Part shown: positions 977-37,105 of the stretch, piece by piece
Position numbering within the stretch: position 1 is the stretch's first letter
Layout of the letters: every line of letters begins with the position of its first letter
Origin: Candidatus Nanoarchaeia archaeon
GTDB lineage: Archaea; Nanobdellota; Nanobdellia; Jingweiarchaeales; Jingweiarchaeaceae
Reading direction: 5' to 3'
Assembly: GCA_038874075.1 (NCBI GenBank)
Contig: JAVZDD010000001.1
Span: forward strand, 136,701-200,700
Length of the DNA: 64,000 nt
Program-made: the position numbers and the translations under genes
Notes under the pieces: generated by a model
Told to the model about the DNA's origin: nothing
The model's input: only the letters and a program-made list of their open reading frames with translations
The model's database searches: none

Positions 977-977
977 C

Positions 978-4936: not shown

Positions 4937-4938
4937 TC

Positions 4939-6399: not shown

Positions 6400-6401
6400 T
6401 T

Positions 6402-6791
6402 TTACACCTTTGTAATTTTGCTTTCAATCTTGCTTTTTCTCAATTTATCATTCAAATTTAATTCAACGATCATCAAATTTGATGGTTTCAATGGATAACT
6501 TGTCTTTGTTCCATCTGCTTTCTCAATCTTTGCGACATCAACAAAAACATTACCTTTTCTCAAATCAATTCTTTCAACAGTACCAACCATTTTCTTAAAT
6601 CTTCCCTTCATAATTTTCACTTTATCACCTTTACAAATCGTTACACTTCGTCTTTTGTACTTTGCTCTCAATTCCTTTGATAGATTAACAGATAAAAACT
6701 TCCTTCTAATATGAAGTGGGGCATTATACCTATACTTACGCTGCTTGCTTGGTTTTTTGCTACTCTTCCATTTTTTACTCCAATATTTCAT
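6402..6791 (-). CDS. rpl24: 50S ribosomal protein uL24
   Basis: KOW motif KGDKVKIMKGRFKKMVGTVERID. Confidence 0.9.
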   Translation of the reverse strand: MKYWSKKWKSSKKPSKQRKYRYNAPLHIRRKFLSVNLSKELRAKYKRRSVTICKGDKVKIMKGRFKKMVGTVERIDLRKGNVFVDVAKIEKADGTKTSYPLKPSNLMIVELNLNDKLRKSKIESKITKV

Positions 6792-6799
6792 TTTTACAC

Positions 6800-7231
6800 C
6801 TAAGCCACGATACTTGCAACTTTTGAAATATTTGGAAATCTTTCGATTACTTCCTTTGCGATTGGTCCCTTCACAATCGTTGCTTGAGGATCCTTTGTCT
6901 TAAGGTCTTTTAGCAAAATTGCTGCATTGTCTTCAAACTTTACCCTTAAACCATTCGCTCTCCTGTATTCTTTTTTCTGCCTAATTATTACTGCATTCAC
7001 GATCTTATGTTTCATCTCTGGTGTTCCATCTTTAACTACTGCTGTTATTATGTCACCAACACCTCCTGCAGGATATCTGTTTTTTACACCCTTGTATCCT
7101 CTTATAGATATTACTGTAATCAATCTTGCTCCTGAATTATCCGCCACTTTTATTGTTGAATTTACCGGAATTGCTCTTGTTACGTGTGCTTTGATTGGTT
7201 TAATACCAACTGTTTTTCTTCCTACACCCAT
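6800..7231 (-). CDS. rpl14: 50S ribosomal protein uL14
   Basis: IKVADNSGARLITVISIRGYKG... Confidence 0.9.
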   Translation of the reverse strand: MGVGRKTVGIKPIKAHVTRAIPVNSTIKVADNSGARLITVISIRGYKGVKNRYPAGGVGDIITAVVKDGTPEMKHKIVNAVIIRQKKEYRRANGLRVKFEDNAAILLKDLKTKDPQATIVKGPIAKEVIERFPNISKVASIVA

Positions 7232-7236
7232 TTATC

Positions 7237-7563
7237 TCACCCTATCTTCTCAATAATGACAAATTTCTTTATTTTGCTTAAAGGTCTACATTCCATTATC
7301 CTTACCCTATCGCCTTCTTTTGCATTTATGCAGCTTGGATTATGAGCATAAACTCTTGTTTTTCTTCCTTCATATCTTTCAAATTTTTTTAGATACCTGA
7401 AATACCTCCACTCAACAATTGCGGTCTTCGCTGGCTTTGATCCAATGACTTTACCCTCGAACATTCTCCCCCTAACTCTAAGCTTACCATGAAAAGGACA
7501 GTTCCTATCTGTGCATTCCTTCGTTGGTACCTTTACATTTATTCCAATATTTCTTACCATCAA
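7237..7563 (-). CDS. rps17: 30S ribosomal protein uS17
   Basis: GKVIGSKPAKTAIVEWRYFRYLKKFERYEGRKTRVYAHNP, an OB-fold S17. Confidence 0.9.
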   Translation of the reverse strand: MMVRNIGINVKVPTKECTDRNCPFHGKLRVRGRMFEGKVIGSKPAKTAIVEWRYFRYLKKFERYEGRKTRVYAHNPSCINAKEGDRVRIMECRPLSKIKKFVIIEKIG

Positions 7564-7564
7564 A

Positions 7565-7828
7565 TCACCTTTTCAATCTATCCTCTGGTCTGCCAATTAA
7601 AAGATTCCCATCTATCCTAATCTTTCTACCTTCAATCTCAAATTCAAATATCGTGTCTTTTTTTGGAACCATTTTTTCCCTTCCCATTTGCTCGATTACC
7701 AGCATGTTCTTTGTCTCGTCCACTACTTTCCCTACAATTTTTTCGTATGAGTTATTTATGCTTTTCTTTACCTTCACTTTTAGCCCTATCAGTTCATGTC
7801 TGGTGATATTCTTCGGACTTATCATCAT
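7565..7828 (-). CDS. rnp1: RNase P protein component 1 (Rpp29/Pop4)
   Basis: 87 aa, HELIGLKVKVKKS...GKVVDETKNMLVI; conserved archaeal position between SUI1 and S17. Confidence 0.7.
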   Translation of the reverse strand: MMISPKNITRHELIGLKVKVKKSINNSYEKIVGKVVDETKNMLVIEQMGREKMVPKKDTIFEFEIEGRKIRIDGNLLIGRPEDRLKR

Positions 7829-8133
7829 GAAACTTCGATAGTTTCCGGTGCAAATCCAAGTTTTACTAGTATCTCTTTTGCTTTTTTCCTGTGATCTCCC
7901 TGCAGTTCAAGTGTATTGTTCTTGATTGTTCCACCACATGCCAATTCTGTTTTCATTTTTTTCACGATTTCTTTAAGATCTATTTGTTTTGTGTCAATCC
8001 CTGAAATCACTGTCATAAACTTGCCAAATCGTTTCTTCTCTAATTTTATCATAATTTTTGTTTGCTCCTTCGCTATTATTTCACATGCACAAATGTCCTT
8101 TGGTAAACCACACTTTGGACATGTTTCACTCAT
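7825..8133 (-). CDS. Translation initiation factor SUI1 / aIF1
   Basis: CGGTIKNNTLELQGDHRKKAKEIL, the SUI1 signature; position between L29 and Rpp29. Confidence 0.8.
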   Translation of the reverse strand: MSETCPKCGLPKDICACEIIAKEQTKIMIKLEKKRFGKFMTVISGIDTKQIDLKEIVKKMKTELACGGTIKNNTLELQGDHRKKAKEILVKLGFAPETIEVS

Positions 8134-10905: not shown

Positions 10906-11721
10906 TCACAAAAATTTATTTTTTAATTCCTCGATCGCTGATTTTGTCCATATCACAAACCTTCCTGGCTTCCCTCCAGGCGCTAGTTGTTCAACGTTCA
11001 AATCCTTTAAAATTACAGCATCGCATCCTGGAATATTCCTTGCAATTTTGTAAAGATCACAATATTTTGAAACAACGAAAAGTATCCCTTTTTTCTCTTT
11101 ATATCTCCTTCCCCTGAACTTACCTTTTCCTGCCTTTATCTTTTTCTCTTCAGTCCTTTCAAGCTCTTTTTCTAATCTGAAATTCTTTAATACTTTAATC
11201 AAATCTTTTGTTTTTTTCAGATTCTCAATTTTATCCTCGATGATAAGTGGAATTTCAGGAACATCATTTACCTTGTGTCCCCTTGATAATACGAGCTCTT
11301 TTTTTCCAGAAGCAGCAATCGCAGATCTTATTGCTTTCTTCCTCTCTTTTTTATTTATTTTTTTGAAGATTACTTTTTCTGTCCTTGGTGGATGTGCCTC
11401 TCTACCACCAACAGTATGTGGCGCAAAGGCTCCGACAAGGTGAAATTGCATTCCCCTCCTCATCAATGTCTTTCTTGGAGTTCTGCTCCTACCAGCACCA
11501 TAAACACTTTTGTATCTCCTTCTTTCTTTTGTTAACCAAACCACTTTCTTCTTTCCAGCTAGCTCATCTCTACCTTGTGTTTGTTTTTTATGTGATTCCA
11601 ATGCAATGAATACTCTTCTAATTAAATCTTCTCTTACTTCTTCACTAAAGTGCATTGGAAGTTCAACTTCGCCAATTTTTTGGCCATTTATCGAATAAAC
11701 ATTTGCGTTCATTTCATGCAC
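10906..11721 (-). CDS. rpl4: 50S ribosomal protein uL4
   Basis: 271 aa, RSRTPRKTLMRRGMQFHLVGAF; operon position. Confidence 0.9.
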   Translation of the reverse strand: MHEMNANVYSINGQKIGEVELPMHFSEEVREDLIRRVFIALESHKKQTQGRDELAGKKKVVWLTKERRRYKSVYGAGRSRTPRKTLMRRGMQFHLVGAFAPHTVGGREAHPPRTEKVIFKKINKKERKKAIRSAIAASGKKELVLSRGHKVNDVPEIPLIIEDKIENLKKTKDLIKVLKNFRLEKELERTEEKKIKAGKGKFRGRRYKEKKGILFVVSKYCDLYKIARNIPGCDAVILKDLNVEQLAPGGKPGRFVIWTKSAIEELKNKFL

Positions 11722-12712
11722 CTTTTGCTATATGGACAATTTTTGGCGCTTGTTGGAATGTTTTTCTGGATGGTCTAACTGCGAGCCTGAATCTTAAAAG
11801 TCTTTTCCTTGAGCCTGGTACAGAACCAGCAATGAGCATATAATCAGTGTTTACATTTCCATAATTTAAAAATCCACCACTTTTGTTTATCTCTGCTGGA
11901 TTGCTTGAAATTTTTAAAATTACTTTATTAAGTTCTGTTCTTGTCTGAAAGCCCATTTGACCAGCCCTACCAACACGCCATGTCTTTGTGTATGGTCTCC
12001 AAGGTGAGAGTGCTCCTGGTTTTCTTCTCACTCTCTTCGTCTTTCTTGTCAAAATCTTCATTCCATGTCTCATGATTGGCCCTTGTATTCCTTTTCCTTT
12101 CGTTACTGCGATAACGTCAACTTGTTCTCCTTCTTTCAGTACTTCATTTACTTTTATTTCCTTTCCAAGTATTGACCTGGCAAACTCAATTTTTTCCTTG
12201 ATATCCTTTCCACCAATTGCAATTTCAAATATCTCTGGTTTCTTTTTCAATTTTGCTAATCTTGGTTGTGTGTGTGCTAAAATTCGTAAATCGCATATTT
12301 TATTGATGTTTGCTTCGATTTTTTCAAATTCCTTTGCTAATTCTTTTCTCTTTTTGGGAATTTTTATCTTTCTTTCTAAATCTTTACTCAAAGAATCTGA
12401 TAGAATGTCACAAAAAACTTCTTTTTTACCTTGATCCATTCGATAGAATCTTATACCAAAAATTTTTAGTGGTGGTGTTTCAATGATTGTGACGGGTAAA
12501 GCAATTTCTCCTTTGGTTGGCGAATGCTTTCTATCATCAATTACGATCGCATGCGTCATTCCTACCTTATAACCTGCGAATCCGAGAATTCGCTTTTCTT
12601 CAATTTCAGGCCAATTCTTTATTCTAGGATAAATCCTCTTAGCCCTAACCCTAGGCCAATATGCCAAACTGCCCCTGTGTGGATATCTCTTCCTTCCTAC
12701 TTTATGTCCCAT
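11714..12712 (-). CDS. rpl3: 50S ribosomal protein uL3
   Basis: MGHKVGRKRYPHRGSLAYWPRVRAKR..FAGYKVGMTH; first gene of the operon. Confidence 0.9.
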   Translation of the reverse strand: MGHKVGRKRYPHRGSLAYWPRVRAKRIYPRIKNWPEIEEKRILGFAGYKVGMTHAIVIDDRKHSPTKGEIALPVTIIETPPLKIFGIRFYRMDQGKKEVFCDILSDSLSKDLERKIKIPKKRKELAKEFEKIEANINKICDLRILAHTQPRLAKLKKKPEIFEIAIGGKDIKEKIEFARSILGKEIKVNEVLKEGEQVDVIAVTKGKGIQGPIMRHGMKILTRKTKRVRRKPGALSPWRPYTKTWRVGRAGQMGFQTRTELNKVILKISSNPAEINKSGGFLNYGNVNTDYMLIAGSVPGSRKRLLRFRLAVRPSRKTFQQAPKIVHIAKGA

Positions 12713-12979
12713 GCATTACACCGCAATTTTTTAAATACCACTATGTTTTTAAATATTTCTATCCCAGCCGCAGAATTCCGATCAGGTTGCGTATATTAAT
12801 AAATTTTGGGTAATTTAAAAAGTTTTTCTTTTTATCATAGTTATCATTTGATAAATACAAACCCATAATCTTTTTATAGTAGTAAATAATTACGAATAGT
12901 AAAATGAAGAAATGGGTAGCTCATCTTGAGTTTCTATTTATAGCTACGATTCAGATATCTAAAAATTCTGGGGATAAAA
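12713..12979. promoter_or_regulatory. AT-rich divergent intergenic region between rpl3 (minus) and the 706-aa ORF (plus); presumed promoters with several TATA-like TTTAAATA / TTTAAAAA boxes
   Basis: 267-bp non-coding gap upstream of two divergently oriented operons. TATA-like elements are read by eye only. Confidence 0.4.
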
Positions 12980-15100
12980 ATGAAAAATAAAATCACTCTT
13001 GTGGGTCTGGGTGAGCTCGGTCTAGGCACAAAATATGGCTATCCTGAAGCGATAACGGGATTAACACATGTATTGAAAAATGAAGATATTGACGCAATAA
13101 TTATCACTGGTGGCTTATTGCCGAGGGTTCCAAGGGTTGCAAGTAAGAGAAATTCTCAATACCTAGATACGCTTGCATCAGATGAGATAGATTCTATCCA
13201 AAAAGCTTCGATTGAAAGTAAAAAAATAATTGAACCGTTAAAAAATGTCACAAAGAAAGCAAAATGGTATTATGCGTGTGGTGAAGAGGATAGAGGAAAT
13301 CTTGAAGAGCTAGTTGATGTTAGAATTGCTGAAGCATTGGACTTACCAACAATTGTTGAAAATTTGAAAACTAAAATTGCAACATTTAGTGAGCAATTAA
13401 AATCAAAAAAGAGGGAACTTGAACTTCTAAGAGAAGAATTTGAAAAATTTGGTAAGAATAATCATGATAAAAATTATTTAAGTGAATATAGGAAAAGACG
13501 GAGGGAAATAGAGAACGAAATAAAAAGAATCGATACTGAACTTAGGGAAGATGAAGCAAATCTCGTTCAGAGACAAGAGGCATTGAAGAAGTATGGTTTC
13601 ATTAAATTTACTGGACGTTATCCACTAAAAAAAGAGGAACGTGATTTATTCTTAGAAGAGGCAAAAAGAGAGTATAAAGAATTGATCTTTCATAGCATTG
13701 GTCATGATGCAAATATAATTTTACCTGATTCGGAAGCAAATATTAAAGTAAAGGGAATGGAAATTAAAGTTGCGCACAATTCTAACAGAAAATCAGACGT
13801 ACCCTTACAGGTTGGGATACAAAGAAGGGTAATGAAAAATAAATTTAAAAATGTTACAAAAGAAAATGTTCCAGAATTGGATATCGAGGGACATCATGCT
13901 GGTGGATTCAGGGTATACATCCAGCGAAAAAGAAGAAATGTTCCTGAGCAAGTCTTCTATGTTCAGCTACCAACACTTCATCACATTGGAAAACTTGAAG
14001 AAATGCTCGCAGAAGGAATTAATAATTGGGATGTTAAAAGACTTTATGAGGGATATAGCAGCGGTTATGCTTCTGGTGCAGTAATAATGAGAAAAAGAAA
14101 TGATGGTGTAAGAGAATTTGAATTCTTTTCGTCTGATGAATTGGCAAAAATAAAAGATACTGGAATCGAAAGTTTGAGAAACAAACCAATAAAGATAGAA
14201 GCGCTTGCTGATATGCACATAGGTTGTACGAATGAGCCATCACTTCCGAATTCAATGAGTAATTATGCATTGGTGGAAGCATACAAAAATTATCAAAGGA
14301 TTCATGGTTTACCAAATATTATCGTAGCGCTTGGGGATATGGTGCAAGCAGGACCATATCGTGGGGCTGAAAGTGAAAGTAGAGTGGAAATGACAAGATT
14401 CCAGCTTGAGCAAGAAAGAGCTAAAATAATGAAGAGTAATTTGAGTAACGAAGAAAAACTTAAGAAAATTGAAGAATTGGATCGAAGCTACTTGTCATAC
14501 ATACCAATCACGAACATTAGTGAGCAAAAGATGGAGTTGAGGGATAGGTGGATTAAGCCACATGTACATAAAGTACTTGACAATGGTGGAAAAGTGTTGC
14601 TCGTCAGCGGAGATCATTACAACAAAACACTTGGTGGAAAAGAAGACGAGGCAACTGAAATAGCAAATATGATTGATGAGAGATTTAGGGACAAAGTATA
14701 TGTGCTCAAAGGGAATGAGTTCGGAACCGGGAAAAAAGTAATAGACAATTTGAGAATTTACGCGCAGCATAAACCAATGTACTCAAATCAAGATGAAGTA
14801 ATTGGTGGGATGAAACACTTGATTAGAATAAATGAAGATTGCGACATTGCATTCTTTGCGAACTGGCACCATCCTGGTTTTGGTTACATAAATAGCGCTA
14901 GTGGTGGTGTTCTAATCACTGCCTTACCTTCCTTCCAACCTGATAATCCTTATGTATCAGCGATCGGCAAGCAATCTTCAACAAATGGTTTTTACAACAT
15001 CTTCGTAAAACCCGGAAGGCAATGGTTTAAGATTGAAGTTGTGACAGATGATGCGCTATTAAATTATGTGCCTGGATTAGAAAAGAAGCCAAGAGTGTGA
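12980..15100 (+). CDS. Large uncharacterized protein (706 aa). The C-terminal half carries a divergent calcineurin-like metallophosphoesterase motif set; the N-terminal region contains a coiled coil.
   Basis: Motifs in order: LADMHIG (DxH), ALGDMVQAGPYRG (GDxxD..R), LLVSGDHY and LKGNEFG (GNH[DE]-like), MKHL, FANWHHPGFGY (GHxH-like). A K/E/R-rich coiled coil spans residues about 140-230. Separated by 4 nt from the next gene, so operonic. Confidence 0.45.
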   Translation: MKNKITLVGLGELGLGTKYGYPEAITGLTHVLKNEDIDAIIITGGLLPRVPRVASKRNSQYLDTLASDEIDSIQKASIESKKIIEPLKNVTKKAKWYYACGEEDRGNLEELVDVRIAEALDLPTIVENLKTKIATFSEQLKSKKRELELLREEFEKFGKNNHDKNYLSEYRKRRREIENEIKRIDTELREDEANLVQRQEALKKYGFIKFTGRYPLKKEERDLFLEEAKREYKELIFHSIGHDANIILPDSEANIKVKGMEIKVAHNSNRKSDVPLQVGIQRRVMKNKFKNVTKENVPELDIEGHHAGGFRVYIQRKRRNVPEQVFYVQLPTLHHIGKLEEMLAEGINNWDVKRLYEGYSSGYASGAVIMRKRNDGVREFEFFSSDELAKIKDTGIESLRNKPIKIEALADMHIGCTNEPSLPNSMSNYALVEAYKNYQRIHGLPNIIVALGDMVQAGPYRGAESESRVEMTRFQLEQERAKIMKSNLSNEEKLKKIEELDRSYLSYIPITNISEQKMELRDRWIKPHVHKVLDNGGKVLLVSGDHYNKTLGGKEDEATEIANMIDERFRDKVYVLKGNEFGTGKKVIDNLRIYAQHKPMYSNQDEVIGGMKHLIRINEDCDIAFFANWHHPGFGYINSASGGVLITALPSFQPDNPYVSAIGKQSSTNGFYNIFVKPGRQWFKIEVVTDDALLNYVPGLEKKPRV

Positions 15101-15104
15101 TTTA

Positions 15105-15989
15105 ATGGTAAGGATTGTGGGAACTATTCCTCGCTATCAAAAAGACGAAAATTGTAAGATTTGTGAAATAGAGCGAATTGTGGAAAAATCTAATGGAGAC
15201 ATTATCATATTACCTGAAGAATACTTCGGTGGTCCAAAAGTAGCCTATGAAAAGGAAAGCAGCTTGGTTGACAAACTTGAAAAAATTGCAAGAGAAAGAA
15301 ACGTTGGTTTAGTTGTTGGTGTGATAGAAAAGGAAGACGATAAGAAATACCAATCAATCTGGTTCTTTAATGAAAAGGGTAAATTTCTTGGCTCTGAAAA
15401 AAAGTACAACCTTGCTGGATACGAAATGGATCCTGATTTCTACAACCTAAGTGCAAATCCATCAAAATTCTTCGAGAGAGGTGCGTATGAGATTAAGGGC
15501 ACAAAAGGAACTGGGGTCATATGTTGGGAAGTTTATGACTTACATACAAAAGTTGCATGTGATAGTGCCAACATAGACTGGATTGCTAATTTGATAAAGT
15601 TCCCAATTAATTACTTTCCTGTGTATGAAAGGAGTGGGAATAATTATGTAATAAGACAATTGGTGAAATCGGAGGAAGAGTATGTAAGATGGATGGAAAA
15701 ATTACAGGAGCTCGCGAGTGATACATTGAGTTTGGTCATCGCTTCTTGCAACCCAACTTTTCCAGGATTGGAAAATTTGGTGCCAAAGGATGCAAAGGCA
15801 TTGGCGTGTATACTACATCCAAAAAATGGTTTAGTTAGGACTACAAATTTAGAAGGTATGTTCGTTAGTTTTGATTTTGAACCTGAGACGATAAGGAATA
15901 TTAGAGAGAGTAATGATCTAAATGCAAAAGCATGGAGAATAAGACACAAATATGATAACAGAAAGGTGAAAATAGAAAGATCAGGGTGA
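15105..15989 (+). CDS. Carbon-nitrogen hydrolase (nitrilase superfamily) protein
   Basis: Catalytic triad motifs in canonical order: IILPEEYF (Glu), SEKKYNL (Lys), GVICWEVYD (Cys-Trp-Glu). 294 aa. Confidence 0.65.
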   Translation: MVRIVGTIPRYQKDENCKICEIERIVEKSNGDIIILPEEYFGGPKVAYEKESSLVDKLEKIARERNVGLVVGVIEKEDDKKYQSIWFFNEKGKFLGSEKKYNLAGYEMDPDFYNLSANPSKFFERGAYEIKGTKGTGVICWEVYDLHTKVACDSANIDWIANLIKFPINYFPVYERSGNNYVIRQLVKSEEEYVRWMEKLQELASDTLSLVIASCNPTFPGLENLVPKDAKALACILHPKNGLVRTTNLEGMFVSFDFEPETIRNIRESNDLNAKAWRIRHKYDNRKVKIERSG

Positions 15990-16868
15990 AACGAGTTCTG
16001 ATAAAATTTCAATTAAATCTTTTTGTGTTTCAGCAACCCACTTATTCAATCCAAATTGTTTATTGTGATTTGAAATTTCTGGAATTACTTCCCAATCAAC
16101 TGCATGGTCAGGAACTACTTCATATTTTCCAGCTTTTGGCCAGATGTATTTGTGTATTCCAATTACTGGTTTTGAAGATGCAATTGTGTATCCTGTTTCT
16201 ATCCAAGGACCTATGTTGTTTTCATCATCGACCCTTGTGATTATGCCATCTGACATATCAATTAAGTCTAAGCAGTATCTTGCGCCTTTTTTACCTGGCT
16301 GCACTTTCTTGAAGTTTTCTTCTGGTAGTGCAGATAGATCATTGCAGTAATTTTCATAAGGATTGTAGTTATCCACTAATTTCTGTGGATTAATCGCATT
16401 GAAGGCATATCTTTTTAAGAATTCTTCCATCCATACAAAATAACCTGTTTTATCTGCAAATCTCACATCCCCAGCGATGTAGAAAGTTGGTGGACTCTGA
16501 AATCCTTGAAAATTTCTAAAATTTTTTTTACCTCTAAAGTTCTCAATTTTTTGAAGCGTATCACTAATTTGAGAAGTTTCAGTTATGGTTATTGGTAGAA
16601 CGCCATAGAAACCGTAGCTTGGTGCTTCTTTCTTTAAATTCCAAAATGCAATGATAGGTAAATTCAGGCCGAGCGCATAACCAACCCCAGTCCATATCTC
16701 TGGTGTTCTTTGGTCTCTTCTTACGAGAACGAAATCACTATCTTTTATTTTTGAAAGTGAAAATTCAAGATTTTTATTTAAAACCTCTACGTCATTCTTC
16801 TCTAGCTCTTCAAGAACATCATCGATTACGCTTTTTCTTTCGTTTATTGCTAAGATTGTAGTTTTCAT
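15981..16868 (-). CDS. Tandem nucleoside 2-deoxyribosyltransferase-like (NDT / SLOG-fold) protein; N-terminal copy degenerate
   Basis: C-terminal domain has FYIAGDV...DMSDGIITRVDDENNIGPWIETGYTIASSKPVIGI, matching the NDT signatures (hYhAG..; D..G..E.GYA) including the nucleophile Glu. The N-terminal domain has FVLVRRDQRTPEIWTGVGYALGLNLPIIAF with the Glu displaced. Confidence 0.6.
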   Translation of the reverse strand: MKTTILAINERKSVIDDVLEELEKNDVEVLNKNLEFSLSKIKDSDFVLVRRDQRTPEIWTGVGYALGLNLPIIAFWNLKKEAPSYGFYGVLPITITETSQISDTLQKIENFRGKKNFRNFQGFQSPPTFYIAGDVRFADKTGYFVWMEEFLKRYAFNAINPQKLVDNYNPYENYCNDLSALPEENFKKVQPGKKGARYCLDLIDMSDGIITRVDDENNIGPWIETGYTIASSKPVIGIHKYIWPKAGKYEVVPDHAVDWEVIPEISNHNKQFGLNKWVAETQKDLIEILSELVSP

Positions 16869-16914
16869 TCTTTATGCAAAATGAACAACGAATATAAATT
16901 TTACTACTTAAAAA

Positions 16915-17397
16915 TTAAAAAATAATCATATAAAAATCGACTTGTGAACTGTCCTTTCTCCTTTGACCAATTTCTAGGATTACACTTTCAAGATCTTTCT
17001 TTATTTCTTTTGGGATTTTTCTAAAGATGTTACACTCTGGCATTGAATTTTCTTTTCTAAATTCATTTTCTAAGATTTCGGCAAAAAAATGCGCGATCTT
17101 TGCTCTTTCTCCCTTCTTTTTCCAAATCAATTGCGCAAACGATGGATATTTATTATAAAATCTCGGATCCTGCGAATAGCATTCCGTTATCTCGTGGACA
17201 AGAATTGCGCACCTCTCTTTAAAATCTTTGATCATCGAAAATTTATTTGGATTTAATTCTACAATTGGTGGTGTTTTCCATGGATAAGAGGTGCACGCCT
17301 CACCTATTTTATTTTCTAAAAATAAAATTGGTATATCTAAGTTTGTGAAATTTTTAACATAATTTTTTGCTTCTTCTATTTCACTAGAGAATTTCAT
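16915..17397 (-). CDS. Hypothetical protein (160 aa), translationally coupled to the upstream Cas4-like gene by an ATGA overlap
   Basis: ORF only; no recognisable motif. The 4-nt overlap with 17394..18995 indicates an operon. Confidence 0.3.
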   Translation of the reverse strand: MKFSSEIEEAKNYVKNFTNLDIPILFLENKIGEACTSYPWKTPPIVELNPNKFSMIKDFKERCAILVHEITECYSQDPRFYNKYPSFAQLIWKKKGERAKIAHFFAEILENEFRKENSMPECNIFRKIPKEIKKDLESVILEIGQRRKDSSQVDFYMIIF

Positions 17398-18995
17398 TTT
17401 AGATCAAGCGGCTCAGTAATTTGAATGCTACTTCTTAAATTGGTGACGTGTTCAAACGGAAATCTTGAAGATGCTATTCCCACGCTTTGAATTAAACCTT
17501 TTTCTTTTAGTGCTTTCTCCCTAGCTTTGAAGATTTTTTTGAGAAATGTTGTGTATGGTGTACCACATTCCCTTAACTTTTGCATCATTTCTTCTTTAAA
17601 TTCGTTCAATGCTTTTTGCTCCTTACCCACCATCTCATGCTGTTTTTTTCTTCTATAAACAACTGTTCTTTTCCTGTTAATTGGATTGATTATTTCCTGC
17701 TCTCTGACCCATCCAAGATTCTTTGCAATTTTAAGTAAAGTTGAAATCGATGTTGGTGAAATATGTGTATAGGCGCTGATTGTGGAAATTGATCTCTCTT
17801 TATTGTCTTCAAGTCCAAGGAAAAGTATTGTAAAAAGTCTTAGTGTCGAATAGTCATTTGCTTGTCTTTCCATCCATCGTAATTCACTTTCAAGCCCAGT
17901 GATATTTTTTTCTTTTGTCCAATATCGCAATGGCTTAAACTCTTCCTTTATCCTGGCCTCTTTAAGTTTTGTATTTCCATTATCAATTGCGATTTGTGTA
18001 AGCATTCCTTCAATTCCAATCGTCCTTCTTCTACCAATTATATATTCTCCATTTTCATCTTTTCTTGCCACTATCTCTCCCCTTCTCTCAACTGCTTCTT
18101 CTAAGCAAGGTGAGCATCTCTCATAGTATTCAGAATACCTGCATTTCTTCATTCTTCCTGGTTTAACATTAAATTCTTCAATTATTTCTTTTGCTAAAAT
18201 TTCATTTTTTTTCTTCAAATTTGACATTAAATCAGAAATGAATTGGAATTCGTAGAGCTCCCCTTCGCTTGGTTCGTATTCTATCATCTTCTTCGGAAAG
18301 AAAAGATAAAGTAATGATTTCCTTGAATCACCAAGTTCCCTTGCAAGTATGATCTCACCTTGCATTTGTCGCTTGACGATTGAATCAAGGAAACCATCCA
18401 ATTTCATTTCGACAGGAACCGATTGACCTTCGTGAAATTCGATTTTATCCGGTCTTCCAATTAAATTTGTTTTCTTTGAAATTATCTCTGGATTCACCAT
18501 TGCTTTAACATAAATTCCATCAAATGCTTTCTTTGAATTTAAATTTGAATAGAAAATCTCATGAAATCGCTTTGCTTCAAATTCGGATTTTGTGTGAATA
18601 AAAATATTCTTTAGTTTATCTACTTGTTCATCATTTAAGAAAACAAATTTATTGTTGTAATTGAAAATGTCTTGTAGGTATGCATCAGCAATCTTACTCT
18701 TCGTGATTTCTCTGTTTATATCAATGCTATTTCCTCGTTCTATTTTTGAAATCAGATCTGATGCTAATTTTTTATCAACATTACAAGAAATACTGAACAA
18801 ATCATGAATGAGTTTTCCCCTCTCCATAGATCTATTTAAAATTGTTCTTCCACGATTGTATTTCCAGTGCCATTCTAATGGACAATGATCGAATGTAACA
18901 ACTTCGCTAATGGTGTTAAGCATCGATTCCATTTTATTGGATACAAGATTTGGTTTTTTAAGATTTACTCTATAGTAGTAATTATAGATTTTCAC
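17394..18995 (-). CDS. Cas4-like PD-(D/E)xK nuclease with Fe-S cysteine cluster, fused to a C-terminal winged helix-turn-helix domain
   Basis: N-terminal FDHCPLEWHWKY (Cas4 YxxCPRxxW-like). GKLIHDLF; GRPDKIEF...VPVEMKLDG (D...ExK). C-terminal CRYSEYYERCSPC (CxxxxxxxCxxC), completing a 4-Cys cluster. Residues about 390-450 RLFTILFLGLEDNKERSISTISAYTHISPTSISTLLKIAKNLGWV resemble a TrmB/MarR-like wHTH. Confidence 0.6.
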   Translation of the reverse strand: MKIYNYYYRVNLKKPNLVSNKMESMLNTISEVVTFDHCPLEWHWKYNRGRTILNRSMERGKLIHDLFSISCNVDKKLASDLISKIERGNSIDINREITKSKIADAYLQDIFNYNNKFVFLNDEQVDKLKNIFIHTKSEFEAKRFHEIFYSNLNSKKAFDGIYVKAMVNPEIISKKTNLIGRPDKIEFHEGQSVPVEMKLDGFLDSIVKRQMQGEIILARELGDSRKSLLYLFFPKKMIEYEPSEGELYEFQFISDLMSNLKKKNEILAKEIIEEFNVKPGRMKKCRYSEYYERCSPCLEEAVERRGEIVARKDENGEYIIGRRRTIGIEGMLTQIAIDNGNTKLKEARIKEEFKPLRYWTKEKNITGLESELRWMERQANDYSTLRLFTILFLGLEDNKERSISTISAYTHISPTSISTLLKIAKNLGWVREQEIINPINRKRTVVYRRKKQHEMVGKEQKALNEFKEEMMQKLRECGTPYTTFLKKIFKAREKALKEKGLIQSVGIASSRFPFEHVTNLRSSIQITEPLDLK

Positions 18996-19078
18996 ATAAA
19001 AATATCAAAATGACTACAAAATGTAGTCAATTCTGAATTCCAGGAAAAAATTTATCCAAGTAAAATATTGTTTTAACC

Positions 19079-19591
19079 ATGGATCTGTTTGTTGATAAGG
19101 AAAAAATAGTATGGATATTGTTTCTGTTTCTAATTTTTTTGAATAGTGTGGTAAAGCCAGAATTGGAGGAGCAAATAGAAAGAATGGAAATAATTAGGTT
19201 AAGTTTGGAGAAATCAGCTGAAGAAATGAGGCAAACAACAGAAAGTTTCGAGAAATCAATAAAGGAATTGCAAGAAACACAGAATAAAAGTGAAGATTGG
19301 ATTAGGTTGAGGAATTTGATGGAAATAACCAGTTCGTTGAATGTAAGTAGGTGTGAAGAAATCAAAGAAGAAGTTTTTCAGATACTTTGCGTTGGATACA
19401 TAGTGAATGAAACGCAAGATTACACAAAATGTTGGCAGATAAATGAGTCTTCAATTGTCTACAATAATAGTTTAAGGGATTGGTGTTTTTATTTTAGTGC
19501 GCTTGTTGAACTAAAAAATGCTTCACTATGTAATTATGTTAGTAATACTTCTCTTAGGCAAGAATGTTTTTTAAGATCAAGAAATATTTAA
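19079..19591 (+). CDS. Small secreted/membrane-anchored cysteine-rich protein (170 aa), unknown function
   Basis: N-terminal hydrophobic segment IVWILFLFLIFLNSVV, coiled-coil middle, eight Cys in the C-terminal half. Confidence 0.3.
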   Translation: MDLFVDKEKIVWILFLFLIFLNSVVKPELEEQIERMEIIRLSLEKSAEEMRQTTESFEKSIKELQETQNKSEDWIRLRNLMEITSSLNVSRCEEIKEEVFQILCVGYIVNETQDYTKCWQINESSIVYNNSLRDWCFYFSALVELKNASLCNYVSNTSLRQECFLRSRNI

Positions 19592-21036
19592 CCCTTGCAT
19601 ACACCAATCGGTACCAACCTAACAACAAGTTTTCCTATTCCTGCTCGGTTACTGACATTGGCTACTTCATCGATGTCTTTGTAAGCGCCTGGTGCCTCTT
19701 CAGCGATCACTTCCCAAGAAGCTGCTCTGACTAAAATTCCTCTGTTCTCAAGTTCCTTTGCAACGGTTTTGCCCCAATACCTCCTTATCGCCTCATTTCT
19801 TGACATTTCTCTACCTGCACCATGCGCGGTTGAATAGAAGGTTTTCTGGGCTTCTTTGTTGCCAACGAGCACATAACTTGCCGTTCCCATGCAGCCTGGT
19901 ATCAAAACTGGTTGGCCAACACTTTGATAAGCTGCTGGTATATCTGGGTGTCCTGGTGGAAACGCTCTTGTTGCCCCTTTCCTATGAACAAAACATTTTA
20001 TTCTTTTTCCATCAATTTCGTGTTCCTCAATCTTTGCAATGTTATGAGCGACATCATAAATTAATTTTAAACCCATTTTTTCAGCATCTTTTTTGAAGAT
20101 TTCCTGAAAACTTTCTCTTACCCAATGTAAAATCATCTGTCGATTACACCAAGCATAATTGGCTGCGGCGCACATTGCGCTAAAATAACTATCTGCCAAT
20201 TCGCTATTTGATGGTGCATAAACTAATTCCCTATCGGGAAGCTTCGAAATTACTTCGTGATATTTTCGCTCTATCTCTCTCAAGTAATCACTACATACTT
20301 GATGACCCAAACCTCTTGAACCTGTGTGGATCATCACAGTTATTTGATTCTCTTCTTCTATACCAAATGTTTTTGCAACATTTTGATCATATATCTTATC
20401 GACCCTCTGAATTTCGAGAAAATGATTACCTGCGCCTAAACTGCCAAGTTGTGGCATACCTCTCTGTTTTGCATTATTGGAAACTTTTTTGGGATCAGCT
20501 TCTTCCATACATCCCTCCTCTTCCATATGCTTAATGTCTTCTTCCCAACCATAACCATTCTCTACAGCCCACTTTGCTCCAAGTCTTAGTACCTCATCTA
20601 ATTCATTCAATGAATGGACTTTCACCTTTCCTTTGCTTCCAACTCCAGATGGCACATTTCTAAATATTTTCTCCAGTAATTCTTTTAACACTGGACGAAT
20701 ATCGTTCTCCTTAAAATTAGTCCTAATTAAGCGAACACCACAGTTTATATCGTATCCAACTCCACCAGGACTAATACAACCTTCTTCATAATCTATGGCC
20801 GCTACACCACCAATTGGAAAACCATAACCTTCATGCCCATCTGGTAGTGTAATTGAATACTTGTGGATTCCTGGTAAGCAAGCAACACCTGCTGCTTGAA
20901 TCAATGTTCTATCCTGCTTCATTTTTTCTAGTAGCTTTGGACTTGCAATCACTAGGCCAGGCACTTTCATTCCTGGAATTGTACTTTGTGGTATCTCCCA
21001 TTCAATGTCATTTATTTTTTTCAATTGAATATCCAT
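19588..21036 (-). CDS. rtcB: RNA-splicing ligase RtcB
   Basis: GVACLPGIHKYSITLPDGHEGYGFPIGGVAA...GGVGYDINCGVR...HTGSRGLGHQV, the RtcB hallmarks; 482 aa. Confidence 0.95.
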   Translation of the reverse strand: MDIQLKKINDIEWEIPQSTIPGMKVPGLVIASPKLLEKMKQDRTLIQAAGVACLPGIHKYSITLPDGHEGYGFPIGGVAAIDYEEGCISPGGVGYDINCGVRLIRTNFKENDIRPVLKELLEKIFRNVPSGVGSKGKVKVHSLNELDEVLRLGAKWAVENGYGWEEDIKHMEEEGCMEEADPKKVSNNAKQRGMPQLGSLGAGNHFLEIQRVDKIYDQNVAKTFGIEEENQITVMIHTGSRGLGHQVCSDYLREIERKYHEVISKLPDRELVYAPSNSELADSYFSAMCAAANYAWCNRQMILHWVRESFQEIFKKDAEKMGLKLIYDVAHNIAKIEEHEIDGKRIKCFVHRKGATRAFPPGHPDIPAAYQSVGQPVLIPGCMGTASYVLVGNKEAQKTFYSTAHGAGREMSRNEAIRRYWGKTVAKELENRGILVRAASWEVIAEEAPGAYKDIDEVANVSNRAGIGKLVVRLVPIGVCKG

Positions 21037-21097: not shown

Positions 21098-21886
21098 ATG
21101 AAAAGTATTGAGGGGAAACTAGTAAAAATTGAAGGCTTAGAGAACTTAATCGTTGTTGGAGACTTACATGGTGATTTTAATAGTTTTAAAAAAATTGTTG
21201 ATGAGTGGAGAAAACAAAAAGGTTACATCATTTTTCTTGGTGATTATGCAGACCGCGGTAGCAGTGGCTTAGAAATCATAGAAAGTCTGATGGAATTGAA
21301 GAAAGATAAGAACGTAATATTGCTCAAAGGGAATCATGAAGACTACGATAAGTATGGCCGACCTTCATTTTCACCATGTACTTTGATTCATGAAGTTGAG
21401 CAAAAAATGGGTGAATGGAAATCTTATTTTTCAAAAAAATTAGAACCATTCTTAAATGAATTGAACTTGGCTGCGATTGTAGATAAAATTTTATTTGTTC
21501 ATGGTGGTATAAGTTCAAGAATAAGAAGTATCGAAGATTTGAAGCATCCTAGTAAGCAAATAGAAGAAGATGTGATATGGAGTGATCCTAAAAGTGATTG
21601 TGGGAAAGGAGAATTCCCAAATTATAGAGGTGCTGGAGTCGAATTTGGTACAGACATTGTCCAAAAAGTGTTCAGTAAGTTGGGTGTGGATTTATTAATA
21701 AGAAGTCACCAACCCACGATTGCAAAGTATGGTCCATATTTTGCGTTAAATGACATGGTTATCATAATTTCCTCTACTGACATTTATGGGGGAATACCGC
21801 ATTACTTAAACATACCAGGAAACAAAATTGATGCAATTGCCAAAAATTCAAGAGAAATTTTGAAATACACAAAATTTTTACATTAA
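21098..21886 (+). CDS. PPP-family Ser/Thr phosphoprotein phosphatase / ApaH-like metallophosphoesterase
   Basis: GDLHGD, GDYADRG, GNHE motifs in canonical spacing. Confidence 0.8.
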   Translation: MKSIEGKLVKIEGLENLIVVGDLHGDFNSFKKIVDEWRKQKGYIIFLGDYADRGSSGLEIIESLMELKKDKNVILLKGNHEDYDKYGRPSFSPCTLIHEVEQKMGEWKSYFSKKLEPFLNELNLAAIVDKILFVHGGISSRIRSIEDLKHPSKQIEEDVIWSDPKSDCGKGEFPNYRGAGVEFGTDIVQKVFSKLGVDLLIRSHQPTIAKYGPYFALNDMVIIISSTDIYGGIPHYLNIPGNKIDAIAKNSREILKYTKFLH

Positions 21887-22308
21887 ATGTCTAAGACAAC
21901 ATGAACGAAGAAATTGGAATCTTTTTTTCCAATGTCCATATTAAAGTAAGTAACTGCTTTAATTGCTGTCCTTGGCTCATGTTTATTCTCATCAAATTTT
22001 TCACCCATTGCTCTTGCTTCCAGCTTCCACACACCAGTAGTTTTCCATATTTTTATCACCTTAACTTTACCAAAGACAAGATCTTCTGCGTCATGAAATA
22101 TTAGAAACTTCTCAAGAAAATCATAAAGTAGGCTCTTCATATCCTCACTTTGTATACTAATTTCTTTTGTTGTTTTCAATTCGACTTTCTTTGTATTTAC
22201 CATCACTTCTTGAAGTGCAATTGCAGCATTTTCGAATGCTTCCTCAATCGTTTTACCTTGGGCTTCGTATTCAACATCTGCTGTGTGTCTGAAAAATTTA
22301 ATTTTCAT
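21883..22308 (-). CDS. Archease (RtcB activator)
   Basis: MKIKFFRHTADVEYEAQGKTIEEAFENAAIAL, the archease N-terminal signature; 141 aa; near rtcB. Confidence 0.85.
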   Translation of the reverse strand: MKIKFFRHTADVEYEAQGKTIEEAFENAAIALQEVMVNTKKVELKTTKEISIQSEDMKSLLYDFLEKFLIFHDAEDLVFGKVKVIKIWKTTGVWKLEARAMGEKFDENKHEPRTAIKAVTYFNMDIGKKDSNFFVHVVLDI

Positions 22309-22799: not shown

Positions 22800-23303
22800 A
22801 TGGATATGGATGATTATTATGATAAAATAGCCAGGGGCTATGATGAACTTTACTTTGAAGAGCAAATGGACAAGTTAGAAAAGATTGAGAAGTTCGTAAA
22901 GTTTGATAAAGAGGATGTTGTACTTGACATTGGCTGCGGGACAGGTAAGATAACAAAGATAATAAAAGACAAAGTAAAGATGATTATCGGTATTGATATA
23001 TCAAGAGAAATGGCAAGGCTAACAAAAAAGAATCTCGTACCTTGCATTGTAGCAGATGCTGAAAATTTACCTTTCAAGAGGAATAAATTTGATAAAATTA
23101 TTTGTCTAACAGTAATACAGAATATTGAAGATCAGAAAATGGCAATAAATGAGATGGAAAGGGTCTGCAAAAAAGGTGGGATGATAATACTGACGATGAT
23201 GAAAAGAAGCAAGCGGGTCCACTTCTTGAGATACTTAATGGATAAGGGTACTTTATTTATTGGAGACATTGGTAAGGATTTTTTATTTATTTTGAAATTT
23301 TAG
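22800..23303 (+). CDS. Class I SAM-dependent methyltransferase
   Basis: VLDIGCGTGKIT motif I; acidic motif II; UbiE/small-MTase-like, 167 aa. Confidence 0.75.
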   Translation: MDMDDYYDKIARGYDELYFEEQMDKLEKIEKFVKFDKEDVVLDIGCGTGKITKIIKDKVKMIIGIDISREMARLTKKNLVPCIVADAENLPFKRNKFDKIICLTVIQNIEDQKMAINEMERVCKKGGMIILTMMKRSKRVHFLRYLMDKGTLFIGDIGKDFLFILKF

Positions 23304-26840: not shown

Positions 26841-26944
26841 TGGGGCTGCAGGGATTTGAACCCTGGTTTTTGGGTTTCTTCATCTTTAAATCTGCGCTCC
26901 AGTCTGCTGGAGCCCAATGTCCTACCGTGCTAGACTACAGCCCC
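26841..26944 (-). tRNA. tRNA-Trp (anticodon CCA) with an about 31-nt intron at the canonical 37/38 position
   Basis: Reverse complement GGGGCUG..UUGGG-CUCCAG[CAGACUGGAGCGCAGAUUUAAAGAUGAAGAA]A-CCCAA..CAGGG-UUCAAAU-CCCUG-CAGCCCC-A. The intron 5-prime end (CUGGAG) pairs with the anticodon region (CUCCAG), as in BHB-type introns. Confidence 0.8.
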
Positions 26945-37101: not shown

Positions 37102-37105
37102 CTCG

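What the first reader, a model, noticed from the sequence alone, without database searches (positions are those of the whole stretch)
17394..18995. Cas4-like Fe-S nuclease fused to a winged-HTH, with no CRISPR array or other cas genes
The N-terminal 330 aa carry all Cas4/RecB-nuclease hallmarks. These are a first Cys in DHCPLEW, G..IHD, GRPDKIEF...VPVEMKLDG, and a C-terminal CRYSEYYERCSPC. The C-terminal 200 aa look like a TrmB/MarR-type wHTH. A nuclease directly coupled to a sequence-specific DNA-binding domain suggests a targeting, autoregulated or defence-associated nuclease rather than a CRISPR adaptation protein. No repeats, cas1 or cas2 are present in the window.
Basis: partly seen in the sequence, partly recalled or inferred. 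Interest (0 to 1): 0.6.

Follow-up and report, generated by a model that had tools for sequence, protein, structure and literature searches.

The report
Orphan Cas4-like nuclease fused to wHTH
A tiny-celled archaeon carries a DNA-cutting enzyme of the Cas4/RecB type welded to a MarR-like DNA-binding module; it is real, rare and unrelated to CRISPR, it sits in a variable gene island beside a large phosphoesterase, and its job is still unknown.

Summary
Window 17394-18932 (-) encodes 512 aa; the listed GTG at 18995 is probably not the start. Residues 1-284 are a Cas4-like PD-(D/E)XK nuclease: Pfam PF12705 scores above its gathering score, and the top fold matches are ACE1, MGME1, Dna2, Cas4 and phage Cas4-like exonucleases. 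Residues ~300-478 form a MarR-like winged-helix module. H43, G159-x-P161-D162, K177 and Q189 are invariant in all 7 known full-length relatives (E175 is D in one), so the nuclease is probably active. The Fe-S cysteines are not conserved: one member has none, and the window protein has a re-spaced set (C17, C264-x8-C273-x2-C276). It is not a CRISPR Cas4: it scores far below the TIGR00372 cut-off, and the 64 kb hold no array or cas genes. The family is tiny, with about 7 full-length representatives among 1.84 billion, all from Parvarchaeota-type DPANN archaea. It always lies between RtcB and the rpL3 operon, but 8 related loci join those flanks with 0-1 unrelated gene between them. The gene therefore sits in a variable island, and the RtcB link is positional. 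A large coiled-coil metallophosphoesterase is a recurrent neighbour. One lineage keeps only the wHTH module. The most likely role is a DNA-anchored dimeric nuclease in an accessory DNA-processing module. This is a new variant of a known kind, of moderate interest.

The parts
17394..18932 (-). Gene for the 512-aa Cas4-like nuclease-wHTH fusion (P0001). The maximal ORF extends to GTG 18995.
18081..18932 (-). N-terminal PD-(D/E)XK nuclease domain (residues 1-284), PF12705/Cas4-like. Motif I is H43 (18804-18806), motif II is G159-R-P-D162 (D at 18447-18449), motif III is E175-x-K177 (18402-18410), and the Q motif is Q189 (18366-18368).
18882..18884 (-). First cysteine (C17, in DHCPLEW) of the putative Fe-S ligand set.
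   Evidence: aligned to the first Cys region of Cas4 4r5q
18105..18143 (-). C-terminal cysteine triad C264-x8-C273-x2-C276 (CRYSEYYERCSPC). This is a re-spaced version of the canonical CxxCx5C seen in P0005 and P0008.
   Evidence: the AF2 model is low-confidence here
17499..18032 (-). C-terminal MarR-like module (residues 301-478): four helices, a wHTH core and a helical hairpin. The wHTH core is residues 360-430 (17643-17855), with an invariant S392/S395 recognition-helix start and the wing motif Y426-R427-R-K-K430.
18933..19078 (.). Divergent intergenic region. It holds a TATA-like TATAAT (18981-18986) and a perfect 8+8 palindrome TGACTACA-N3-TGTAGTCA (19011-19029). The palindrome could be an operator or a terminator-like hairpin; it is not statistically compelling.
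16915..17397 (-). 160-aa ORF overlapping the nuclease stop codon by 4 nt, probably co-translated. It is conserved only in the closest relative (L001, 51% identity). No family match.
15981..16868 (-). 295-aa nucleoside 2-deoxyribosyltransferase-like protein, on the same strand downstream. It recurs next to the fusion in L001, L008 and L012.
12980..15100 (+). 706-aa protein with a coiled coil and a C-terminal calcineurin-type metallophosphoesterase motif set (DxH, GD, GDH, HH). It is the recurrent neighbour of the fusion: L001, L006 (1143 aa), L008 (fragment) and L012/L013. L010's 838-aa protein is only a possible relative.
15105..15989 (+). 294-aa CN_hydrolase (nitrilase superfamily), co-oriented with the 706-aa gene. 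Also present in L001 and L012.
19079..19591 (+). 170-aa ORF with an N-terminal hydrophobic segment and a Cys-rich C-terminus, transcribed divergently from the fusion gene. Not conserved in other lineages.
12713..19587 (.). Variable island between rpL3 (11714-12712, -) and RtcB (19588-21036, -). In eight related loci these two flanks are separated by 43 bp to 1.35 kb (L015: 43 bp).

Best explanation
The gene encodes an orphan ('solo'), non-CRISPR nuclease of the Cas4-like PF12705 branch of the RecB/PD-(D/E)XK family. Its metal-dependent active site is intact (H43, D162, E175, K177, Q189). The window protein probably also has an Fe-S-type four-Cys module with re-spaced ligands. The nuclease is fused to a C-terminal MarR-like winged-helix module. 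By analogy with MarR-fold proteins, I infer that this module dimerises through its flanking helices and docks the enzyme on duplex DNA, using the invariant S-x-x-S recognition-helix start and the YRRKK wing. The tethered nuclease domains would then nick or resect DNA locally, as shown biochemically for other Cas4-family enzymes. The gene is not a core gene and has no functional tie to RtcB. It belongs to a small accessory island inserted at a variable junction between RtcB and the rpL3 operon. There it recurs with a large coiled-coil metallophosphoesterase, which I infer to be its partner in DNA-end processing. One lineage keeps the wHTH module alone, head-to-head with the phosphoesterase gene. 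The wHTH module therefore probably also has a role of its own, as a regulator of the island or as a DNA-binding subunit. Shown here: domain identities, conservation of the catalytic residues, the tiny and patchy distribution, and the island context. Inferred: dimerisation, the DNA substrate, the partnership with the phosphoesterase, and the biological role (repair, or degradation or salvage of foreign DNA).
For: PF12705 scores above its gathering score over the full profile, and 5 of 7 members hit it. PADLOC Cas4 models score down to 4e-8 in family members. The AF2 model has mean pLDDT 73.6. Its best PDB fold matches are ACE1, MGME1, Dna2 and Cas4 for the N-domain, and MarR-family proteins, AbfR2, BldR and TFE-alpha for the C-domain. 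Its best viral fold matches are phage PD-(D/E)XK / Cas4-family exonucleases at 1.6e-4. H43, G159, P161, D162, K177 and Q189 are invariant, and E175 is E or D. No CRISPR or cas genes were found in the window. The family has about 7 full-length representatives among 1.84 billion. RtcB lies upstream in every locus with context. Eight related loci join RtcB to rpL3 with 0-1 unrelated genes between them, and none of 80 RtcB loci holds the fusion or the phosphoesterase. The phosphoesterase homologue is adjacent in the window, L001, L006, L008 and L012/L013. A stand-alone wHTH module lies head-to-head with that gene in L012. Published Cas4-family enzymes are metal-dependent DNA nucleases whose Fe-S cysteines can be dispensable for catalysis (PMC12501428 abstract; PMC8610317 highlights).
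Against: There are no biochemical data. The Fe-S region of the model is low-confidence (residues 16-30 and 254-299). The cysteines are not conserved; P0003 lacks all of them. The wHTH matches known families only below their curated cut-offs at sequence level. No conserved operator was found upstream of family members. Homology of the phosphoesterase in L010 is only marginal (hhalign E 3.9e-4, probability 35%). The two genes are usually convergent, not in one operon. The sample is small, at about 6 independent lineages. RNA cannot be excluded as the substrate.
Confidence: 0.5

Rival explanations
1. Defence or conflict module. The nuclease-wHTH, with the large phosphoesterase, is an uncharacterised anti-virus or anti-plasmid system in which the wHTH recognises foreign or modified DNA and the Cas4-like domain destroys it.
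For: The gene lies in a variable island at a junction that holds different genes in relatives. Distribution is patchy among lineages with similar RtcB and L3. It evolves fast, at 24-32% identity where RtcB is 50-56%. There has been domain loss and ligand loss. The closest solved fold is ACE1, an Argonaute-associated defence nuclease (PMC12094033). Solo-Cas4 proteins of DPANN archaea have been suggested to act in defence (PMC5704561).
Against: PADLOC gives nothing beyond weak Cas4 hits for the fusion, and nothing below E 0.01 for the neighbours scanned. No methyltransferase, integrase, tRNA or flanking repeats mark the island. There are no homologues in the viral, phage or plasmid collections. 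The gene sits at the same chromosomal position in all lineages. Base composition is the same as the surrounding DNA.
Confidence: 0.2
2. Primarily a MarR-type transcription factor that regulates the island or itself. The nuclease domain would be a secondary accretion acting as a sensor or effector.
For: The C-terminal module is somewhat better conserved than the nuclease domain, at 33% against 27% mean pairwise identity. In L012/L013 it exists alone, head-to-head with the phosphoesterase gene across a 64-bp gap, which is a classic regulator-target layout. A perfect 8+8 palindrome lies next to the TATA-like box in the window.
Against: The catalytic residues are invariant in all seven fused members (E175 is D in one), which argues for selected nuclease activity. 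The palindrome is not conserved elsewhere. About one such palindrome is expected per 2 kb, giving p about 0.07 for this region, and it also scores as a terminator-like hairpin.
Confidence: 0.15
3. Nucleic-acid scavenging. The nuclease, the phosphoesterase, the deoxyribosyltransferase/DNPH1-like enzyme and, in L008, a queuosine-salvage protein break down DNA to bases and sugar phosphates for a host-dependent DPANN cell.
For: The recurrent island neighbours are nucleotide- or nucleoside-handling enzymes: an NDT-like protein in the window, L001, L008 and L012, Q_salvage in L008, and the metallophosphoesterase. The same window encodes the AMP phosphorylase / R15P isomerase / form III RuBisCO salvage pathway.
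Against: The proposal explains neither the wHTH fusion nor how the cell's own DNA would be spared. No secretion signal was noted in the fusion sequence, though this was not formally tested. The neighbours other than the phosphoesterase are not present in every lineage (L006 and L010 lack them).
Confidence: 0.1
4. RNA repair or processing partner of RtcB and archease.
For: RtcB lies immediately upstream on the same strand in every family locus with context. Other phosphoesterases lie nearby.
Against: RtcB and rpL3 are adjacent without the fusion in 8 related loci, and none of 80 RtcB loci holds the fusion, so the linkage is positional. From established knowledge, PD-(D/E)XK enzymes leave 5'-phosphate and 3'-OH ends, which are not RtcB substrates. 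The RecB/Cas4 motif set and fold matches are to DNA nucleases.
Confidence: 0.04
5. A genuine CRISPR adaptation Cas4 whose partners lie elsewhere.
For: The fold is Cas4-like and four cysteines are present.
Against: TIGR00372 scores 21.7 against a cut-off of 65. The 64 kb hold no array or cas genes, and none of the related loci does either. From PMC5704561, DPANN archaea mostly lack CRISPR-Cas.
Confidence: 0.01

Closest known systems
Solo-Cas4 / Cas4-like nucleases of pfam12705 (Hudaiberdiev et al. 2017, PMC5704561; M. mazei Solo-Cas4, PMC12501428)
   Same: A RecB-type PD-(D/E)XK core with H, D, ExK and Q motifs, plus an N-terminal Cys and a C-terminal Cys triad. It is encoded outside CRISPR-cas loci and is over-represented in DPANN archaea.
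   Different: It carries a ~180-aa MarR-like wHTH module at the C-terminus. That survey's text describes fusions to Cas1 and UvrD and a link to a YprA-like helicase, but no wHTH fusion in the passages read. The Cys spacing is re-arranged or lost. The N-domain has long helical insertions, at about 285 aa against about 200.
[quoted passage not shown]
   Same: They are the best fold matches to the N-domain (Foldseek probability 0.94-0.99). They are single-strand or end-directed DNA nucleases of the same superfamily.
   Different: Sequence identity is 11-15%. There is no Argonaute or helicase partner here. ACE1 works as a heterodimer with pAgo, whereas here the extra module is a fused wHTH.
CRISPR-associated Cas4 (TIGR00372 / PF01930; PDB 4r5q, 8d3q_J)
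   Same: It shares the fold, the catalytic motifs and the first-Cys region (alignment).
   Different: The protein scores far below the curated cut-off, has no cas1/cas2/array context, has a different Cys spacing, and is fused to a wHTH.
MarR/Lrs14/BldR-type archaeal and bacterial wHTH regulators (e.g. PDB 3bja, 6cmv, 3f3x, 1jgs)
   Same: The C-terminal module aligns over 110-165 columns with whole MarR-fold proteins: helices, then wHTH with a beta-wing, then C-terminal helices.
   Different: It falls below the Pfam gathering scores (MarR_2 19 against 27). It is fused to a nuclease. No ligand pocket or operator has been identified.
PD-(D/E)XK nucleases combined with winged-helix domains (Mrr-type restriction enzymes, Tn7 TnsA, FokI). 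This comparison is recalled from general knowledge and was not tested here.
   Same: The general logic is the same: a restriction-fold nuclease coupled to a winged-helix DNA-binding domain.
   Different: Those nuclease domains are not of the Cas4/RecB Fe-S type. The domain order differs for Mrr and FokI. No methyltransferase or transposition genes are present here.

Membership tests
PF12705 PDDEXK_1 (AddB/Cas4-like PD-(D/E)XK nucleases) | Score at or above the Pfam gathering score over most of the profile | tested here: met
   29.8-30.0 bits against a gathering score of 22, covering profile positions 4-246 of 247. 5 of 7 family members match at E <= 0.1.
RecB/Cas4-type nuclease | Catalytic motifs I (H), II (hhGxhD), III (ExK) and Q...Y conserved | tested here: met
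   H43, G159, P161, D162, K177 and Q189 are invariant in 7 sequences. E175 is E in 6 of 7 and D in 1. The Tyr of QxxxY is E in the window protein.
RecB/Cas4-type nuclease | Fold similarity to solved members | tested here: met
   Foldseek top PDB hits are ACE1, MGME1, Dna2 and Cas4 (probability 0.94-1.0, E 6e-3 to 6e-2). BFVD hits are phage Cas4-like exonucleases at E 1.6e-4. The model has mean pLDDT 73.6.
Cas4 / AddB Fe-S nucleases | Four cysteines, C...CxxCx5C, ligating a [4Fe-4S] cluster | tested here: inconclusive
   The window protein has four Cys but with spacing C17...C264-x8-C273-x2-C276. P0005 and P0008 have the canonical spacing, P0006 has 3 Cys and P0003 has none. The model is below pLDDT 50 in both Cys regions. 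Cluster binding cannot be tested computationally.
CRISPR-associated Cas4 (TIGR00372 equivalog) | Score at or above the curated cut-off | tested here: not met
   21.7 bits against a cut-off of 65.
CRISPR-associated Cas4 | Encoded next to cas1/cas2 and a CRISPR array | tested here: not met
   No repeat arrays. No cas genes in the precomputed Pfam annotation of about window 8,000-64,000 (window 1-8,000 not profiled) or in any related locus.
MarR-family wHTH regulators | Pfam MarR/MarR_2 at or above the gathering score | tested here: not met
   MarR_2 scores 19 bits against 27. The profile search against PDB gives MarR 3bja at E 0.057-0.26.
MarR-family wHTH regulators | MarR-like fold: wHTH with a beta-wing, flanked by N- and C-terminal helices | tested here: met
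   AF2 secondary structure H363-373, H382-389, H393-405, E409-415 and E422-428, flanked by H307-357 and H436-477, with pLDDT mostly 76-94 over the wHTH core. Foldseek probability is 0.66-0.99 to many MarR-family and related archaeal wHTH regulator structures over 110-165 columns.
MarR-family wHTH regulators | Homodimer binding a palindromic operator | not testable with these tools
   There is only one unconserved palindrome upstream.
Known anti-phage defence systems (PADLOC-DB 2.0) | Match of the protein or its neighbours to a defence-system model other than Cas4 | tested here: not met
   only weak Cas4 hits for the fusion. The neighbours give only chance-level hits (ZorA 0.0025 and Cas11e 0.02 on the 170-aa ORF, PbeC 0.021 on the coiled coil of the 706-aa protein, PDC-M18A 0.0039 on L008's NDT-like protein).
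Restriction-modification-type endonuclease | A cognate DNA methyltransferase nearby | tested here: not met
   No DNA methyltransferase in the island or in related loci. The only methyltransferase nearby (22800-23303) is of the small-molecule/RNA Methyltransf_11 type.

The most novel reading that the evidence does not exclude
The Cas4-like nuclease-MarR fusion and the giant coiled-coil metallophosphoesterase form a previously undescribed two-component DNA-targeting system of DPANN archaea. It would be a defence system, or a system for degrading foreign or host DNA for salvage. It lodges at a fixed chromosomal hot spot between RtcB and the ribosomal protein operon. The wHTH module would act both as the DNA-recognition subunit and as the regulator.
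Probability: 0.2. Interest if true: 0.6.

Novelty: new variant of a known kind. Interest (0 to 1): 0.35.

Why it matters
Solo-Cas4 nucleases are common in DPANN archaea and CPR bacteria, yet their cellular role is unknown. A version hard-wired to a DNA-binding module, with a recurrent phosphoesterase neighbour, offers a concrete route to that role. The binding specificity of the wHTH and the partner's activity could show which DNA the nuclease acts on. The family also shows that the Fe-S cysteines can be re-spaced or lost while the catalytic residues stay fixed. That agrees with recent biochemistry showing the cluster is dispensable for catalysis. The practical impact is modest, because the family is very small and confined to uncultivated archaea.

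Tried and rejected
(1) AF2 with a 2-sequence alignment gave a useless model (pLDDT 32). It was redone with 10 sequences.

(3) The word-index protein searches found almost nothing beyond the nearest relatives. Only the exhaustive HMMER scan recovered the family.

(4) Pattern scans for the family found nothing in the viral contigs or the JGI metagenome collection, and only one locus in the GTDB representatives.

(5) I first took the invariable RtcB/archease neighbourhood as a possible functional link to RNA repair. I rejected this after scanning 80 RtcB loci. RtcB and rpL3 are adjacent without the fusion in relatives, so the link is positional.

(6) I tested whether the island is a mobile element. 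It has no tRNA at its borders, no integrase, no flanking direct repeats and no compositional shift.

(7) I tested the upstream palindrome as an operator. It occurs once in the window, its base rate is about 1 per 2 kb, it is not conserved in other loci, and it also scores as a terminator-like hairpin. It remains only a lead.

(8) The small flanking ORFs (170, 160, 137, 100, 75, 178 and 133 aa) are not homologous across lineages, except between the window and L001.

(9) The hit to P0011 (1735 aa, VWA domain, E 3e-5 over residues 326-406) was not followed up; I assumed it to be spurious.

(10) The Fe-S redox-sensor idea was rejected, because the cysteines vary while the catalytic residues do not.
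Full report
OBSERVATION. The ORF is real. The true start is most likely ATG 18932, giving 512 aa, for three reasons. This is the NCBI-annotated product (P0001, 'PD-(D/E)XK nuclease family protein', Candidatus Parvarchaeota MAG GCA_025920735.1). The 63%-identical homologue P0002 starts at the equivalent Met and has an in-frame stop upstream. A TATA-like TATAAT (18986-18981) lies downstream of the GTG. Numbering below is for the 512-aa protein.

DOMAINS. Pfam PDDEXK_1 (PF12705) matches residues 8-273 at 30 bits, against a gathering score of 22, over profile positions 4-246 of 247. The Cas4 equivalog TIGR00372 scores only 21.7 against a cut-off of 65. PADLOC Cas4 models give 3e-5 for this protein and down to 4e-8 for relatives. 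A profile of the family hits the Pyrobaculum Cas4 structure 4r5q weakly, at E 0.009. That alignment matches the first-Cys region and motifs II/III/Q. An AlphaFold model built on a 10-sequence alignment reached mean pLDDT 73.6. Most of the nuclease domain and the wHTH were confident, but both Cys regions were below 50.

Foldseek against the PDB puts ACE1 (9iab/9iac), MGME1, Dna2 and Cas4 (8d3q_J, 4r5q) on top for the N-domain. For the C-domain the top hits are many MarR-family structures, together with AbfR2, BldR and TFE-alpha. BFVD gives phage PD-(D/E)XK / 'Cas4 family exonuclease' models at 1.6e-4 over about 270 columns. The secondary structure of residues 301-478 is four helices, then a wHTH (H363-373, H382-389, H393-405, wing E409-415/E422-428), then a helical hairpin. 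This is the layout of a whole MarR-fold protein. Sequence-level wHTH hits stay below curated cut-offs. The more exact label for the N-domain is 'Cas4-like, PF12705 type', not Cas4 proper.

FAMILY AND CONSERVATION. An exhaustive HMMER scan of 1.84 billion cluster representatives found only 10 proteins at E <= 1e-3. Seven full-length members are now known: six of those hits (P0001, P0003, P0005, P0006, P0007, P0008) plus P0002, which is represented there by P0001. They are 24-63% identical to the window protein. The other hits are fragments or short forms (P0004, P0009, P0010) and one hit I did not follow up. H43, D53, G159, P161, D162, K177 and Q189 are invariant across the seven, and E175 is E in six and D in one.

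The cysteines behave differently. P0005 and P0008 have the canonical C...CxxCx5C. The window protein and P0002 have C17...C264-x8-C273-x2-C276, where the second ligand position is Ser and a new Cys follows the last. P0007 has another spacing, P0006 has three Cys, and P0003 has none. This fits published work in which Cys mutants of solo-Cas4 lose the cluster but keep nuclease activity (PMC12501428; PMC8610317). The C-terminal module is slightly better conserved than the nuclease domain, at 33% against 27% mean pairwise identity. Its invariant positions are S392 and S395 at the start of the recognition helix and Y426-R427...K430 in the wing.

CONTEXT. The window is ordinary chromosomal DNA of a DPANN archaeon. 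It carries the ribosomal protein operon, tRNA synthetases, RtcB and archease, Mre11-Rad50 and a form III RuBisCO salvage cluster. It has no CRISPR array, and no cas genes were seen in the annotated part of the window. In every family locus with usable flanks, RtcB lies just upstream on the same strand. The loci are the window, L006, L007, L008 and L010; L001 has almost no upstream sequence. The rpL3 operon lies downstream in the window, L001, L006 and L010.

I first read this as a possible functional link to RNA ligation. To test it, I scanned a metagenome collection with the window's RtcB. This returned 80 loci whose RtcB is 57-82% identical. None contains the fusion, the stand-alone wHTH module or the 706-aa neighbour. 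In the eight loci that reach rpL3, RtcB and rpL3 are separated by only 43 bp to 1.35 kb, holding zero or one unrelated gene. So RtcB-rpL3 adjacency is probably the older arrangement. Window 12713-19587 is a variable island inserted at that junction, and the RtcB linkage is positional.

The island has no tRNA, integrase, flanking repeats or compositional shift. No homologues occur in the viral, phage or plasmid collections.

RECURRENT NEIGHBOURS. The gene that travels with the fusion is the 706-aa protein at 12980-15100. It has a coiled coil and a C-terminal calcineurin-type metallophosphoesterase motif set. Homologues are adjacent in L001 (73% identity), L006 (1143 aa, about 30%), L008 (a fragment at the contig end) and L012/L013. 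L010's adjacent 838-aa protein aligns only marginally over the phosphoesterase domain (hhalign E 3.9e-4, probability 35%). This protein has no match to Pfam above threshold, to NCBIfam, to PADLOC or to PDB beyond coiled-coil noise. A nucleoside 2-deoxyribosyltransferase-like protein recurs in the window, L001, L008 and L012. A CN_hydrolase recurs in the window, L001 and L012. L008 adds a queuosine-salvage protein. The small ORFs around the fusion are lineage-specific.

L012 is notable. Its RtcB is 73% identical to the window's, yet it encodes only the C-terminal module (P0010, 189 aa). That gene lies head-to-head with the phosphoesterase gene across a 64-bp gap. The same arrangement is seen independently in L013. 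More distant lineages have the full fusion, so the simplest reading is loss of the nuclease domain. This implies that the wHTH module has a function of its own.

MECHANISM. Shown:
- It is a Cas4-like nuclease with a conserved active site fused to a MarR-fold module.
- It has no CRISPR association.
- It lies in an accessory island.
- It has a recurrent phosphoesterase neighbour.

Inferred:
- The MarR-like module dimerises and anchors the enzyme on duplex DNA.
- The nuclease nicks or resects DNA, as other Cas4-family enzymes do.
- The phosphoesterase cooperates in end processing.
- The wHTH may also regulate the island.

Whether the biological role is repair, defence or DNA salvage cannot be decided from sequence. 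I give the generic model 0.5. The specific rivals score lower: defence 0.2, regulator-first 0.15, salvage 0.1, RtcB-linked RNA work 0.04, and true CRISPR Cas4 0.01.

COMPARISON AND NOVELTY. The closest described kind is the solo-Cas4 / pfam12705 Cas4-like nucleases surveyed by Hudaiberdiev et al. (PMC5704561). They note that most DPANN archaea encode solo-Cas4. In the passages I searched they describe fusions to Cas1 and UvrD and a link to YprA-like helicases, but no wHTH fusion. A full-text search for Cas4, winged helix, fusion, archaea and 'nuclease domain' together found no description of this architecture. I therefore rate it a new variant of a known kind: a rare, lineage-restricted domain architecture, not a new principle. 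Interest is moderate to low at 0.35. It would rise if the nuclease and the phosphoesterase prove to be a functional two-gene system.

Noticed in passing
window 12980-15100 (+); L006 8597-12028; L012 7368-9548: An orphan family of large proteins (706-1143 aa) with an N-terminal degenerate phosphoesterase-like half, a long coiled coil and a C-terminal calcineurin-type metallophosphoesterase motif set. It has no significant match in Pfam, NCBIfam, PADLOC or PDB. It is always beside the nuclease-wHTH or the wHTH-only gene.
   Followed up: partly
L012 9613-10182 (P0010) and L013 418-987: A stand-alone version of the C-terminal wHTH module (189 aa, no nuclease domain) lies head-to-head with the large phosphoesterase gene. 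The genome's RtcB is 73% identical to the window's.
   Followed up: partly
window 11714-21036; L014, L015, L016, L036, L037, L040, L049, L061: The RtcB / rpL3-operon junction is a variable spot. The gap ranges from 43 bp (L015) to about 6.9 kb (window). In different lineages it holds unrelated genes: a 157-aa ORF, a 208-aa membrane protein, a 355-366-aa protein, or a 280-aa protein.
   Followed up: partly
window 19011-19029: A perfect 8+8 palindrome TGACTACA-N3-TGTAGTCA lies 79 nt upstream of ATG 18932, just upstream of a TATA-like box. It also scores as a terminator-like hairpin followed by a T-run on the minus strand. It is not conserved in other loci.
   Followed up: yes
window 21098-21886 (+): A 262-aa metallophosphoesterase (weak ApaH/PrpE/Pnkp-phosphatase-like hits) is wedged on the opposite strand between archease (21883-22308) and RtcB (19588-21036).
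   Followed up: no
window 34394-38029 (-): AMP phosphorylase (498 aa), form III RuBisCO (408 aa) and an IF-2B-family protein (307 aa, presumably ribose-1,5-bisphosphate isomerase) lie in a row. This is the archaeal nucleotide-salvage pathway typical of DPANN and CPR genomes.
   Followed up: no
window 45644-48852 (+): Mre11-like (403 aa, Metallophos) and Rad50-like (666 aa, SMC_N) genes lie next to RNase HII, with no adjacent HerA or NurA. If NurA is absent from the genome, a Cas4-like 5'-3' nuclease could be relevant to end resection.
   Followed up: no
window 26841-26944 (-): Rfam finds a fifth tRNA, 104 nt long, that ARAGORN missed. It is probably an intron-containing tRNA, and so a substrate for the splicing endonuclease and RtcB.
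   Followed up: no
window 16915-17397 (-): A 160-aa ORF overlaps the nuclease gene's stop codon by 4 nt, suggesting translational coupling. It contains a conserved HEI(T/A)EC motif shared with the L001 homologue. It has no family match and is absent from more distant lineages.
   Followed up: partly
P0003 (L007 1837-3423): This family member has lost all four putative Fe-S cysteines while keeping every catalytic residue. It is a natural 'cluster-free' variant.
   Followed up: yes
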